Shown one piece after another: positions 17,240-62,163 of a stretch of DNA of 64,000 nucleotides; position 1 is the first letter of the stretch; each line of letters starts with the position of its first letter. The notes below the pieces were generated by a model, which was not told the DNA's origin, did no database searches, and saw only the letters and a program-made list of their open reading frames with translations. Origin of the DNA: Shigella phage SP21535. Where the stretch lies: the sequence record PQ615101; one strand, written 5' to 3'. The position numbers were made by a program, and so were the translations under genes.

Positions 17240-17785
17240 ATGAGAAAAGCACTACTCGCTGGTCTATTGGCCATTTCAATGATGGCACATAGCTCCGAGC
17301 ATACTTTCAGTAATGTCCAACTCGATAACATGCGTTACGCGTATCAATTCGGGGAACAGTTTTCTAAGGATGGAAAATATAAAACACATAAAAATATCCA
17401 CAAGAGCGGATTAGGTTATATAATGGCTGCTATTTTATGGCAAGAAAGCTCTGGCGGAGTTAATTTAAAATCTAAACCAAAGCATCACGCTTACGGAATG
17501 TTCCAAAATTATTTGCCTACTATGCGAGCGAGAGTTAAGGAACTTGGTTATAATATGACCGATGCTGAAATAAAAAGAATGTTGAATAAACGATCCAATT
17601 CAGCTTCCTGGGCGTACATTGAACTTTCTTATTGGTTAAATATACATAAGGGCGATATAAGAAAAGCAATATCCTCTTATAATTCGGGATGGAATGTTAA
17701 AGCTGGTTCTAAATATGCTTCTGAAGTCCTAGAAAAGGCTAATTACCTTAAAAATAATAAACTTTTGGAAATAGTAAATGACTAA
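17240..17785 (+). CDS. secreted lytic transglycosylase-like protein
   Basis: Signal peptide MRKALLAGLLAISMMAHS; WQESSGG motif typical of SLT domains. Confidence 0.6.
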   Translation: MRKALLAGLLAISMMAHSSEHTFSNVQLDNMRYAYQFGEQFSKDGKYKTHKNIHKSGLGYIMAAILWQESSGGVNLKSKPKHHAYGMFQNYLPTMRARVKELGYNMTDAEIKRMLNKRSNSASWAYIELSYWLNIHKGDIRKAISSYNSGWNVKAGSKYASEVLEKANYLKNNKLLEIVND

Positions 17786-18125
17786 AATTTTGGTTTTATG
17801 TATAGGATTAATTTCATTTTCTGCTTCTGCGTCAGCAGATACATCATATACTGAAATTAGAGAATATGTAAATCGCACTGCGGCAGATTATTGTGGGAAA
17901 AATAAAGCATGCCAAGCTGAATTTGCGCAGAAATTAATATATGCATATAAAGACGGAGAAAGAGATAAATCAAGCAGATACAAAAACGATACATTATTAA
18001 AACGATATGCTAAAAAGTGGAATACCTTAGAATGTTCAGTTGCGGAGGAGAAAGATAAAGCCGCTTGTCATTCAATGGTTGACCGTTTGGTAGATTCTTA
18101 TAATCGAGGATTGAGTACTAGATGA
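17778..18125 (+). CDS. vs: Vs (valyl-tRNA synthetase modifier) homologue
   Basis: 115 aa, same length as T4 Vs, positioned between regB and tk. Confidence 0.6.
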   Translation: MTKILVLCIGLISFSASASADTSYTEIREYVNRTAADYCGKNKACQAEFAQKLIYAYKDGERDKSSRYKNDTLLKRYAKKWNTLECSVAEEKDKAACHSMVDRLVDSYNRGLSTR

Positions 18126-59507: not shown

Positions 59508-60536
59508 ATGTCATCAATACCTTGGATTGATAATGAGTTTGCATATCGTGCGCTAGCTCATTTACCTAAATTCACACAAGTAAATAATAGTTCAACTTTT
59601 AAATTACGGTTTAGATGCCCTGTTTGTGGAGATTCAAAAACCGATCAAAATAAAGCCCGTGGATGGTATTATGGTGATAACAATGAAGGAAATATTCATT
59701 GTTATAACTGTAACTATCATGCACCAATCGGAATATATCTAAAGGAGTTTGAACCTGATTTATATCGTGAGTATATCTTTGAAATAAGAAAAGAAAAAGG
59801 TAAAAGTCGTCCAGTAGAAAAACCTAAAGAACTTCCTAAACAACCTGAGAAGAAAATAATTAAATCTCTTCCGTCATGTGTTAGATTAGATAAACTGGCG
59901 GAAGACCATCCAATTATAAAATATGTAAAAGCTCGTTGTATTCCAAAGGATAAATGGAAATATCTTTGGTTTACAACCGAATGGCCTAAATTGGTTAATA
60001 GCATAGTACCGGGAACATATAAAAAGGAAATTTCTGAGCCTCGTCTTGTTATTCCAATTTATAATGCTAATGGAAAGGCTGAGTCTTTTCAAGGACGCGC
60101 ATTAAAGAAAGATGCTCCACAAAAGTATATCACCATCAAAGCTTATCCTGAGGCAACAAAAATCTATGGAGTCGAACGAGTTAAAGATGGTGATGTATAT
60201 GTTCTAGAAGGACCTATAGATTCACTTTTTATTGAAAATGGTATAGCCATTACGGGTGGTCAATTAGACCTAGAAGTTGTTCCATTTAAAGATAGACGAG
60301 TGTGGGTCTTAGATAATGAACCTCGTCACCCTGACACTATTAAACGAATGACTAAATTAGTTGATGCAGGAGAAAGGGTTATGTTTTGGGATAAATCTCC
60401 CTGGAAATCAAAAGATGTTAATGATATGATTAGAAAGGAAGGTGCAACCCCTGAACAAATTATGGAATATATGAAAAATAATATTGCCCAGGGGTTAATG
60501 GCTAAAATGCGGTTATCTAAATATGCTAAGATTTAA
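59508..60536 (+). CDS. 61: DNA primase gp61
   Basis: 342 aa as T4 gp61; zinc ribbon CPVCGDS..CYNC; Toprim-like core. Confidence 0.9.
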   Translation: MSSIPWIDNEFAYRALAHLPKFTQVNNSSTFKLRFRCPVCGDSKTDQNKARGWYYGDNNEGNIHCYNCNYHAPIGIYLKEFEPDLYREYIFEIRKEKGKSRPVEKPKELPKQPEKKIIKSLPSCVRLDKLAEDHPIIKYVKARCIPKDKWKYLWFTTEWPKLVNSIVPGTYKKEISEPRLVIPIYNANGKAESFQGRALKKDAPQKYITIKAYPEATKIYGVERVKDGDVYVLEGPIDSLFIENGIAITGGQLDLEVVPFKDRRVWVLDNEPRHPDTIKRMTKLVDAGERVMFWDKSPWKSKDVNDMIRKEGATPEQIMEYMKNNIAQGLMAKMRLSKYAKI

Positions 60537-60733
60537 ATTAACCCAACTAAAGCAAATGCTAAATCTACGAATGTATCAAGAGTAACTACTGGAATACTAA
60601 CGCCATGAGCAATAGCAACTGGCGATAAAACAAAATTCCAAAGTAAAATTCCTATCATAGCAGAAATAGTAAAAGCTATACGTTTCTTATTACCTTTGAT
60701 GGCATTAACAAGTGCCATTAATTTTTGTACCAT
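60533..60733 (-). CDS. small membrane protein on the opposite strand
   Basis: 66 aa, two hydrophobic helices; strong SD AAGGAGG 4 nt before ATG; only intergenic minus-strand ORF in the early region. Confidence 0.5.
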   Translation of the reverse strand: MVQKLMALVNAIKGNKKRIAFTISAMIGILLWNFVLSPVAIAHGVSIPVVTLDTFVDLAFALVGLI

Positions 60734-60768
60734 ATGTCCTCCTTTAAATTAATATTTATCATAAATTT

Positions 60769-60798
60769 GTTTACTTTCTCAGCTTGTTATGGTATTAT
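60769..60798 (+). promoter_or_regulatory. early promoter with flanking inverted repeat
   Basis: GTTTAC..CTCAGC..TGGTATTAT..GCTGAG upstream of ATG 60824. Confidence 0.55.
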
Positions 60799-60823
60799 AA
60801 AATAAATTGCTGAGGATGATATA

Positions 60824-62163
<1,340 letters not shown>

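What the first reader, a model, noticed from the sequence alone, without database searches (positions are those of the whole stretch)
60533..60733. Opposite-strand small membrane protein gene convergent with primase gene 61
Almost all genes in the 60 kb early region are on the + strand, but the gap between gene 61 and the nuclease-like ORF holds a minus-strand 66-aa ORF with two hydrophobic helices and a near-perfect SD (AAGGAGG, 4-nt spacer). Its stop overlaps the gene 61 stop tail to tail. Upstream on the minus strand is GATAAATA, one mismatch from the late promoter box. Together with the adjacent nuclease ORF it may belong to one inserted module.
Basis: seen in the sequence. Interest (0 to 1): 0.5.

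Follow-up and report, generated by a model that had tools for sequence, protein, structure and literature searches.

The report
Conserved late small membrane gene beside primase
The minus-strand 66-codon ORF next to primase gene 61 is a real gene conserved across T4-type phages; it is missing from the T4 reference annotation, most likely encodes a late-expressed, holin-related small inner-membrane protein, and is not part of an inserted module with the neighbouring nuclease gene.

Summary
There is an ATG ORF at 60533-60733(-). AAGGAGG lies 4 nt upstream of the ATG, the stop overlaps the gene 61 stop by 4 nt, and GATAAATA lies 19 nt upstream of the ATG.

The ORF is a genuine gene of family phrog_2024. 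It sits in the same place, convergent with gene 61, in at least eight genera of T4-like phages. dN/dS is 0.1-0.2 within Tequatrovirus, and synonymous sites are saturated between genera. T4 itself carries it at NC_000866 17738..17938, unannotated.

Every genus examined keeps a NATAAATA late-promoter box 12-33 nt upstream plus a strong Shine-Dalgarno (one has ATTAAATA), so gp55-dependent late expression is the best reading.

Across the family only one transmembrane helix is secure. The predicted topology is basic N-terminus in, then a short acidic amphipathic C-terminal helix.

No curated profile matches the protein. A profile-profile comparison links the family to the C-terminal membrane module of GTA-type 3TM holins, and controls are clean.

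The "inserted module" idea fails. The adjacent 186-aa restriction-endonuclease-fold gene has its own, independent distribution and is partly deleted in T4.

The gene is already annotated in hundreds of genomes as a hypothetical protein, so interest is modest.

The parts
60533..60733 (-). CDS of a 66-aa small membrane protein (family phrog_2024; subtype A of a Tevenvirinae-wide family). The invariant core is W32-N33, P38, A40, G44, P48 and an acidic residue at position 53.
   Evidence: ORF. (phrog_2024, E 8e-31, full length). (about 700-900 phage records). (dN/dS 0.1-0.2; dS saturated between genera). (alignments).
60738..60744 (-). Shine-Dalgarno AAGGAGG, 4 nt before the ATG.
   Evidence: A GGAGG-type SD is present at 4-6 nt in all homologous loci.
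60753..60760 (-). Late-promoter-like box GATAAATA (T4 consensus TATAAATA at -13..-6). The inferred start is near 60747, giving a 14-nt leader UUAAAGGAGGACAU.
   Evidence: NATAAATA is conserved 12-33 nt upstream of the ATG in Tequatro- (G or A), Mosig- (A), Dhaka- (A), Gapriver- (C), Jiaoda- (C and G), Kanagawa- (T) and Marfavirus (T); Gelderlandvirus SEA1 has ATTAAATA. Position -13 is the variable position of T4-type late promoters.
60696..60728 (+). Hairpin plus T-run on the + strand: a probable intrinsic terminator for the gene 61 early transcript. It is embedded in codons 2-13 of the minus-strand ORF, so the gene 61 3' UTR is antisense to nearly the whole small gene.
   Evidence: terminator-like site. 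(dG -12.4 kcal/mol, z -3.66, 0 of 200 shuffles as stable).
59508..60536 (+). Gene 61 (DNA primase), the convergent neighbour. Its stop shares 4 nt with the small gene's stop.
   Evidence: phrog_47, E 1e-106. (T4 synteny).

Best explanation
This is a genuine, conserved T-even phage gene. After DNA replication begins, gp55/gp33/gp45-modified RNA polymerase initiates at the GATAAATA box, about 14 nt upstream of the ATG. It transcribes in the direction opposite to the early genes (inferred). The strong SD drives translation of a 66-aa protein. That protein inserts into the inner membrane with its lysine/arginine-rich N-terminus in the cytoplasm and one transmembrane helix (about residues 19-42, with the invariant W-N...P...A...G core). 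A short acidic amphipathic helix lies at the periplasmic face (inferred from sequence and the AlphaFold model).

The protein is a remote relative of the last membrane module of GTA-type '3TM' holins. It most likely acts in the envelope late in infection as a holin-like or holin-modulating accessory, for example affecting lysis timing or membrane permeabilisation, alongside the canonical T4 holin T (inferred; least certain step).

Early in infection the gene 61 transcript runs antisense across almost the whole gene up to a terminator hairpin inside its 5' end. This would keep the gene silent until late (inferred).

My step-wise probabilities: real protein-coding gene 0.97; late, gp55-dependent transcription 0.8; single-pass N-in membrane protein 0.7; homology to the GTA-type holin module 0.5; an actual role in lysis 0.3.
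For: Coding:
- Full-length match to phrog_2024.
- Intact 62-74-codon orthologues in the same convergent position next to gene 61 in Tequatro-, Mosig-, Gapriver-, Dhaka-, Kanagawa-, Jiaoda-, Marfa- and Gelderlandvirus.
- dN/dS 0.11-0.15 within Tequatrovirus. Between genera pS is 0.7-0.9 with pN 0.14-0.35.
- Two subtypes occur in tandem in Gaprivervirus VR26.

Late expression:
- NATAAATA boxes are conserved, with perfect TATAAATA in Kanagawa- and Marfavirus.
- The motif is depleted elsewhere in the window.
- gp53, the other minus-strand gene with a strong SD, has the same layout.
- According to the T4 late-transcription review, early and middle transcripts all run counterclockwise while late ones run either way, and -13 variants are common.
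- Jiaodavirus copies end in their own GC hairpin.

Membrane topology:
- Hydropathy and charge analysis of 30 homologues.
- AF2 model with pLDDT 75.6: H16-42, a loop, then H52-63.

Holin link:
- Three distant members hit PF11351 GTA_holin_3TM below threshold, all at the same profile region.
- hhalign of the 33-sequence family profile against Pan1 'GTA-like holin' gives Prob 87%, P 4e-6. Against Rhodobacter phage RC1 RHWG_00029 it gives Prob 72.5%, P 3e-5.
- Controls are clean: reversed sequences score 13.4 and 7.9; 150 shuffles each reach at most 17.3 and 14.4; 24 other TM-containing ORFs of the window reach at most 15.3; the real scores are 32-33.
- RC1 RHWG_00029 scores 24.2 bits on PF11351 (cut-off 24.8). 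It lies directly after an endolysin with Phage_lysozyme and PG_binding domains.
- In non-T4 phage contigs, distant members lie in late regions. Some are in one operon with a T4-type lysozyme.
Against: - No transcript, ribosome-footprint or peptide evidence could be consulted. Literature searches found nothing on this ORF.
- The window's box has G at -13. The review I read reports A, not G, as the usual -13 variant in T4.
- No Pfam, NCBIfam or PADLOC model matches the protein or its T-even relatives, even at E of 1-10.
- The holin link rests on short TM-rich alignments and on templates that are themselves just below the Pfam cut-off.
- The protein lacks the charged C-terminal tail typical of holins.
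- It is not next to the endolysin in T4-like genomes, and T4 already has a complete lysis set (own knowledge).
- In several distant contigs the nearest conserved neighbour is endonuclease VII rather than a lysin.
- Foldseek found no structural relative.
Confidence: 0.6

Rival explanations
1. The gene is real and late-expressed, but its function is unrelated to lysis. Examples are superinfection exclusion or blocking of DNA entry, protection against a host membrane-acting abortive-infection system, or a membrane anchor for a late assembly or packaging step.
For: There is no endolysin adjacency in T-even genomes. In five distant contigs the member is translationally coupled to endonuclease VII, a packaging-associated nuclease, rather than to a lysin. 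The protein lacks the charged C-terminal tail of holins. No curated holin profile matches.
Against: Profile-profile similarity to GTA-type holin-like proteins has clean controls. One of those proteins sits in a lysis cassette. Several distant members share an operon or a 2-4 kb neighbourhood with a T4-type lysozyme.
Confidence: 0.3
2. The gene is real but is transcribed early or constitutively from a sigma-70-type promoter on the minus strand, not from a late promoter.
For: A weak sigma-70-like match (TGCACA-16-TATCAT, 9 of 12) lies on the minus strand at 60843-60816, about 85-110 nt upstream.
Against: The number of such matches in the region equals the chance expectation (10 found, 10.4 expected). 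That stretch is deleted in T4 and absent from other genera, which nevertheless keep the gene and the NATAAATA box. [quoted passage not shown]
Confidence: 0.07
3. One reading: the small ORF and the adjacent nuclease-like ORF are one horizontally inserted module.
For: The two genes are adjacent and divergent, in the interval that T4 annotates as an empty 309-bp gap between 61 and dam.
Against: T4's 'gap' contains the small ORF intact plus a 3' stub of the nuclease ORF, which indicates a deletion in T4. The small gene is in about 700-900 records across at least eight genera, while the nuclease ORF is in 163 records. Tequatroviruses lacking both dam and the nuclease ORF still have the small gene.
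Confidence: 0.02
4. The ORF is not coding. The interval is only the 3' UTR and terminator of gene 61, and the open frame is fortuitous.
For: A stable + strand hairpin with a U-run lies inside the ORF. T4 and JS98 reference annotations omit the ORF.
Against: There is purifying selection in this frame and an open frame is retained across genera with saturated synonymous sites. Residues and motifs are invariant. The SD is conserved. The hairpin is not conserved outside Tequatrovirus (from reading the sequence). There is no Rfam match.
Confidence: 0.01

Closest known systems
phrog_2024 / 'RB32ORF030w'-type hypothetical proteins of T-even phages (e.g. JB75 AXC34210.1 'putative membrane protein', S16 gp16.1)
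   Same: This is the same family. The window protein matches the profile end to end (E 8e-31) and is 100% identical to annotated hypothetical proteins in phages ECML-123-2 and vB_EcoM_G8. The position is the same: convergent with the primase gene.
   Different: Nothing differs. The family has no assigned function. It is unannotated in the T4 (NC_000866, AF158101) and JS98 reference records.
Pfam PF11351 GTA_holin_3TM (holin of 3 TMs for gene-transfer-agent release). The RcGTA endolysin-holin locus rcc00555-rcc00556 is required for lysis and release (PMC5026251).
   Same: Both share a W-[NR]-aromatic...P...LP/LDP...[DE] membrane module. Three distant members hit profile positions 66-117 of 123. 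hhalign to two PF11351-like phage proteins gives Prob 72-87% with clean controls. The RC1 relative lies directly after an endolysin.
   Different: The T-even protein corresponds only to the last TM plus tail, giving one secure TM rather than three. No member reaches the Pfam cut-off. It is not adjacent to an endolysin in T-even genomes. I did not verify that rcc00556 itself belongs to PF11351.
T4 lysis proteins: holin T, antiholins RI and RIII (own knowledge of T4 biology)
   Same: They are also late-acting inner-membrane or periplasm-facing small proteins of the same phage. T also has a single TM with an N-in topology.
   Different: There is no detectable sequence similarity. T is 218 aa with a large periplasmic domain. 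The gene is located about 50 kb from the lysozyme gene e and far from t, rI and rIII. No genetic evidence links it to lysis.
Small class II holins and pinholins such as phage 21 S21 (own knowledge)
   Same: The size (about 65-70 aa), hydrophobic character and late expression are similar.
   Different: Those proteins have two true TM domains and a charged C-terminal cytoplasmic tail. Here the charges are N-terminal and the second hydrophobic stretch is short and acidic. There is no profile match.

Membership tests
phrog_2024 (T-even small hypothetical protein) | Significant full-length match to the family profile | tested here: met
   E 8.1e-31, residues 2-66 against profile positions 1-65 of 65. 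The distant member P0097 also hits it, E 5.8e-11.
phrog_2024 (T-even small hypothetical protein) | Syntenic position convergent with primase gene 61 | tested here: met
   The arrangement is the same in T4, JB75, U115, WFL6982, VR26, EAWsc9, Q7622, Entb_45, JS98, JD18, VAC36, SEA1 and S16.
T4-type late (gp55-dependent) gene | TATAAATA box about 6 nt upstream of the start site, close to the gene | tested here: inconclusive
   The window and T4 have GATAAATA, a 7 of 8 match with the mismatch at the variable -13 position. Orthologues have A, C or T at -13, with perfect TATAAATA in three phages. The review lists 32 perfect sites, 9 with A(-13), and other single deviations.
T4-type late (gp55-dependent) gene | Transcript 5' end at the box in vivo, dependent on gp55, gp33 and replication | not testable with these tools
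   No expression data are accessible. Literature searches found none for this ORF.
T4-type late (gp55-dependent) gene | Polarity compatible with late transcription (only late transcripts run clockwise in T4) | tested here: met
   The ORF is on the strand opposite to the early genes. The polarity rule is quoted from PMC2988020.
Pfam PF11351 GTA_holin_3TM | Score at or above the Pfam gathering threshold (24.8 bits) | tested here: not met
   The window protein and 30 T-even relatives give no hit at E of 1 or less. Distant members score 13.6-15.3 bits.
Pfam PF11351 GTA_holin_3TM | Three transmembrane segments | tested here: not met
   There is one secure TM plus a short amphipathic helix. The aligned part covers only the C-terminal third of the profile.
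Pfam PF11351 GTA_holin_3TM | Remote homology of the shared module by profile-profile comparison | tested here: inconclusive
   hhalign gives Prob 87% and 72.5% against two PF11351-like phage proteins, with clean reversed, shuffled and unrelated-TM controls. The templates are single sequences just under the Pfam cut-off. The Pfam HMM itself could not be used in a profile-profile run.
Holins (functional class) | Small membrane protein with at least one TM domain | tested here: met
Holins (functional class) | Hydrophilic, highly charged C-terminal tail | tested here: not met
   The C-terminus is ...LAFALVGLI. The net charge of the C-terminal segment is -2, from two Asp inside the helix. The basic cluster is N-terminal.
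Holins (functional class) | Encoded in a lysis cassette next to an endolysin | tested here: not met
   In T-even genomes the neighbours are gene 61 and dam or 56. Only some distant relatives share an operon with a lysozyme.
Holins (functional class) | Forms lethal membrane lesions that release endolysin at a programmed time | not testable with these tools
   This needs expression and complementation experiments.

The most novel reading that the evidence does not exclude
T4 and the other T4-like phages examined encode a functionally unrecognised late protein, absent from the T4 reference annotation. It is a one-TM derivative of a GTA-type holin and participates in the timing or control of envelope permeabilisation, through lysis, lysis inhibition or a superinfection signal. 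Its mRNA is held in check early by the fully complementary 3' UTR of the primase transcript.
Probability: 0.25. Interest if true: 0.6.

Novelty: already known. Interest (0 to 1): 0.3.

Why it matters
T4 is one of the best-annotated viruses, and its lysis and lysis-inhibition system is a textbook model. A gene conserved in at least eight genera of T4-like phages, probably late-expressed and membrane-inserted, is absent from the T4 and JS98 reference annotations. Omics studies that rely on those annotations would not score it.

If the gene does influence lysis timing or envelope integrity, it would add a component to a system thought to be fully catalogued. If not, it is simply one more conserved hypothetical small membrane protein.

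On the practical side, this work corrects the 'empty' 61-dam interval of T4. The interval holds this gene plus the remnant of a deleted restriction-endonuclease-fold gene.

Tried and rejected
- Curated profile searches of the 66-aa protein and its relatives found nothing: Pfam, NCBIfam and PADLOC. The 'holin' names given by UniRef and PGAP to two members could not be traced to any curated profile hit.
- Foldseek of the AF2 model against PDB gave only noise, E of 3 or more.
- An Rfam scan of 60300-61000 gave no RNA family.
- Literature searches covered T4 ribosome profiling and small proteins, RB32ORF030w, T4 TSS maps, unannotated sORFs and small membrane proteins near primase. None mentions this ORF. 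The Miller 2003 T4 genome review is not held, and one search failed on a too-short term.
- The IMG/VR scan yielded only 8 loci, nearly all duplicates of GenBank phages.
- The two-TM hairpin model was rejected at family level because the C-terminal segment is short, acidic and energetically unfavourable as a span.
- The single inserted module with the nuclease ORF was rejected on distribution and the T4 deletion scar.
- A minus-strand sigma-70 promoter was rejected as a chance-level match lying in DNA that T4 lacks.
- No minus-strand terminator was found downstream of the ORF inside gene 61, so the 3' end of the putative late transcript is unknown in Tequatrovirus.
Full report
**Context.** The window is a Tequatrovirus (T4-like) early region. 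The + strand carries 41, dmd, 61.4, sp, 61.2, 61.1, 61 (59508-60536), a 186-aa ORF (60824-61384) and dam (61384-62163). The region is 98-99% identical to many sequenced Escherichia and Shigella phages.

**Observation check.**
- The minus strand holds an ATG ORF of 66 codons at 60533-60733.
- Its upstream sequence on the minus strand is GATAAATA-ttaattt-AAGGAGG-acat-ATG. AAGGAGG is at 60738-60744 and the box is at 60753-60760.
- Its TAA shares bases with the gene 61 TAA, giving a 4-nt tail-to-tail overlap.
- Mechanical ORF counts are 118 (+) against 26 (-) for ATG ORFs of at least 60 aa.
- Only three minus-strand ORFs of at least 50 aa have an SD-like upstream sequence. One is the bona fide late baseplate gene gp53 (phrog_232), which has a perfect TATAAATA about 20 nt upstream.
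- The ATAAATA core is depleted in the window: 20 copies against 41.7 expected, with all 100 shuffles at 20 or more. Only 5 copies are on the minus strand.
- From base composition, a 66-codon open frame on this strand has p of about 0.011.

**It is a real gene.**
- The protein matches phrog_2024 end to end (E 8e-31).
- tblastn finds it in 697 phage records: about 500 Tequatroviruses at 86-100% identity and 195 records below 60%.
- A second query from a divergent subtype reaches 919 records.
- I inspected the locus in T4, JB75, U115 (Tequatrovirus), WFL6982 (Mosigvirus), VR26 and EAWsc9 (Gaprivervirus), JS98 (Dhakavirus), Q7622 and Entb_45 (Kanagawavirus), JD18 and Metamorpho (Jiaodavirus), VAC36 (Marfavirus), and SEA1 and S16 (Gelderlandvirus). 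In nearly every case a 62-74-codon homologue sits between gene 56 or dam and gene 61, convergent with 61, usually with the same 4-nt stop overlap; in Metamorpho one extra gene lies between it and the primase gene.
- There are two subtypes: A (T4-like...AIKGNKKR...LLWNF...) and B (MGTIFYQIWKL...WNL...). VR26 carries both in tandem, and in EAWsc9 the B copy has decayed.
- Nei-Gojobori estimates give dN/dS of 0.11-0.15 within Tequatrovirus and 0.13 within Jiaodavirus. Between genera, synonymous sites are saturated (pS 0.7-0.93) while pN stays at 0.14-0.35.
- M1, W32, N33 and P38 are invariant and A40, G44 and P48 nearly so.
- No gene on the other strand overlaps the ORF beyond 4 nt, so the constraint is on this reading frame.
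- No Rfam family matches the interval.

**T4 itself.** The T4 reference records (NC_000866.4 and AF158101.6) annotate nothing between dam and 61. The ORF is nevertheless intact there at 17738..17938 on the record's + (clockwise) strand. It is 94% identical to the window protein and has the same GATAAATA and AAGGAGG. JS98's RefSeq record also omits it. Many other records call it 'hypothetical protein', 'putative (trans)membrane protein', or RB32ORF030w in RB51. The gene is therefore known to databases but uncharacterised.

**Promoter.**
- In every genus I examined a late-type box lies 12-33 nt upstream of the ATG:
  - GATAAATA in T4, the window and L012.
  - AATAAATA in Tequatrovirus contigs L009-L011, Mosigvirus and JS98.
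  - CATAAATA in Gaprivervirus, and in Jiaodavirus, which also has an upstream GATAAATA.
  - Perfect TATAAATA in Q7622, Entb_45 and VAC36.
  - ATTAAATA in SEA1.
- Flanking intergenic sequence is otherwise diverged between genera.
- The Geiduschek-Kassavetis review states that 32 of 50 T4 late sites are perfect, 9 have A at -13, and others carry single deviations. It also states that all early and middle transcripts are counterclockwise, whereas late transcripts have either polarity.
- Nolan et al. note that -13 is poorly conserved among T4-like phages.
- A clockwise gene with a conserved NATAAATA box and a short SD-containing leader therefore fits a gp55-dependent late gene. This is an inference, because no expression data were available.
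- In Jiaodavirus the gene is followed by its own GC-rich hairpin.

**Antisense overlay.** On the + strand a hairpin plus U-run at 60696-60728 has dG -12.4 kcal/mol and z -3.66. It looks like the terminator of the gene 61 transcript. The primase 3' UTR would then be complementary to almost the entire small-gene mRNA. That is a plausible way to keep it silent early (inference).

**Protein.**
- Among 30 homologues the first hydrophobic segment has a summed dGapp of -2.4 to +3.7 kcal/mol and a mean Kyte-Doolittle value of 1.5-2.6.
- In 27 of the 30 homologues it is preceded by a net positive N-terminus (up to +7; +5 in the window).
- The segment after the invariant P48 is 15-27 aa and has a dGapp of +4 to +16 (+4.3 in the window). 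An acidic residue at the position of D53 is present in nearly all homologues.
- AlphaFold2 with the 30-sequence alignment gives pLDDT 75.6 and pTM 0.52, with H2-12, H16-42, a loop at 43-51 and H52-63.
- I therefore read it as single-pass and N-in, with a short amphipathic acidic helix on the periplasmic side. This is not the two-span hairpin suggested by the window sequence alone.
- Foldseek against PDB gave nothing meaningful.

**Family reach and function.**
- An exhaustive HMM search of 1.84 billion representative proteins found only 18 clusters. The distant ones (50-99 aa) keep the core h-[WY]-[ND]-aromatic-hhh-P..A...G..LP.....[DE].
- Their contigs are non-T4 phages. In five of them the member is translationally coupled to an endonuclease VII gene, downstream of tail genes and of a 94-aa TM-plus-coiled-coil protein.
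- In three contigs (L025-L027; a fourth, L028, is cut short) it heads an operon: member, 180 aa, 109 aa, T4-type lysozyme. In two others a lysozyme lies within 2-4 kb.
- No Pfam, NCBIfam or PADLOC model matches the T-even proteins.
- Three distant members hit PF11351 (GTA_holin_3TM) below threshold, always at profile positions about 66-117 of 123.
- tblastn with one of them touches Pseudanabaena phage Pan1 'GTA-like holin' and Rhodobacter phage RC1 RHWG_00029. RHWG_00029 scores 24.2 bits on PF11351 against a cut-off of 24.8. It lies immediately after an endolysin with Phage_lysozyme and PG_binding_1 domains.
- hhalign of the 33-sequence family profile (A6) gives Prob 87% (P 4e-6, score 32.6) against Pan1 and 72.5% (P 3e-5, score 31.6) against RC1. 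The W-N/R, P, LP and acidic positions are in register.
- Controls are clean. Reversed templates score 13.4 and 7.9. 150 shuffles of each reach at most 17.3 and 14.4. 24 other ORFs of this window with a hydrophobic 19-mer reach at most 15.3.
- The RcGTA endolysin-holin locus is experimentally required for lysis and release (PMC5026251). I did not verify which Pfam family its holin belongs to.
- I conclude that a remote relationship to the last membrane module of GTA-type holins is credible but unproven. An actual lysis role in T4-like phages is only a reasoned guess (about 0.3). The protein lacks a charged C-terminal tail, is not beside the endolysin, and T4 already has holin T, RI, RIII and spanins (own knowledge).

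**The 'inserted module' idea.**
- The 186-aa neighbour has the PD-(D/E)xK signature (D72...E85-x-K87) in an 8-sequence alignment.
- Its AF2 model has pLDDT 79 and pTM 0.78.
- Hits to Pfam DpnII (sub-threshold) and the PADLOC model REase_II (E 9e-5) agree with this.
- 'Nuclease-like' is therefore right. However, the ORF occurs in only 163 phage records, including T2.
- T4 retains just its last 83 nt or so, with a frameshift. This is the scar of a deletion of about 541 bp, window about 60762-61302.
- Tequatrovirus contigs L009-L011 and all other genera lack both this ORF and dam yet keep the small gene.
- The two genes are therefore independent. The small gene is the stable element and the nuclease-dam pair is the variable one.

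**Verdict.** What this analysis adds:
- Proof of selection on the reading frame.
- The conserved late-promoter architecture.
- A revised one-TM topology.
- A controlled remote link to GTA-type holins.
- The recognition that the T4 reference annotation misses the gene.

Interest is modest (0.3).

Noticed in passing
[not shown]
   Followed up: partly
L001 (T4 NC_000866) 2627-2738, corresponding to window about 60762-61302: T4's 'empty' dam-61 interval contains the 3' stub of that nuclease gene ([17 protein letters not shown]..., with a 1-nt frameshift). This is the scar of a deletion of about 541 bp relative to the window. The deletion also removed the early promoter upstream of the nuclease and dam genes.
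   Followed up: partly
window 60696-60728 (+): A stable hairpin (dG -12.4 kcal/mol, z -3.66) followed by UUUUUGU lies about 160 nt past the gene 61 stop, inside the 5' end of the minus-strand ORF. It is a likely intrinsic terminator of the primase transcript, and it makes that 3' UTR antisense to the small gene. By eye it is not conserved in Mosigvirus.
   Followed up: partly
L007 (VR26) 1995-2401; L004 (EAWsc9) about 2693-2830: Gapriverviruses carry two paralogues of the small gene in tandem: subtype A, then subtype B. In EAWsc9 the B copy is truncated or decayed.
   Followed up: partly
L023, L024, L030, L031, L032 (metagenomic phage contigs): In distant, non-T4 phages the family member overlaps the stop of an endonuclease VII (T4 gp49-like) gene. 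That gene is preceded by a 94-aa protein with an N-terminal TM and a coiled coil. In L025-L027 the member heads an operon: member, 180 aa, 109 aa, T4-type lysozyme. The meaning of the endonuclease VII linkage is unexplained.
   Followed up: partly
window, whole (both strands): The ATAAATA core of the late promoter occurs 20 times against 41.7 expected from dinucleotide-preserving shuffles. All 100 shuffles had at least 20, which suggests selection against stray late-promoter boxes in this region.
   Followed up: no
L029 (metagenomic contig) 129-1383: One distant family member (P0098, 59 aa) lies directly upstream of a 352-aa RelA_SpoT-domain protein on a short contig. The context is not understood.
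   Followed up: no
phage records MZ571829.1 (VAC36), PQ341120.1 (EAWsc9), OQ927978.1-related UniRef entry: Several database names for this small protein or its neighbours are evidently wrong or unsupported: 'DNA packaging ATPase', 'dCTP pyrophosphatase' and 'holin family protein' for the small protein, and 'major capsid protein' for the gene in the 61.1 position.
   Followed up: no
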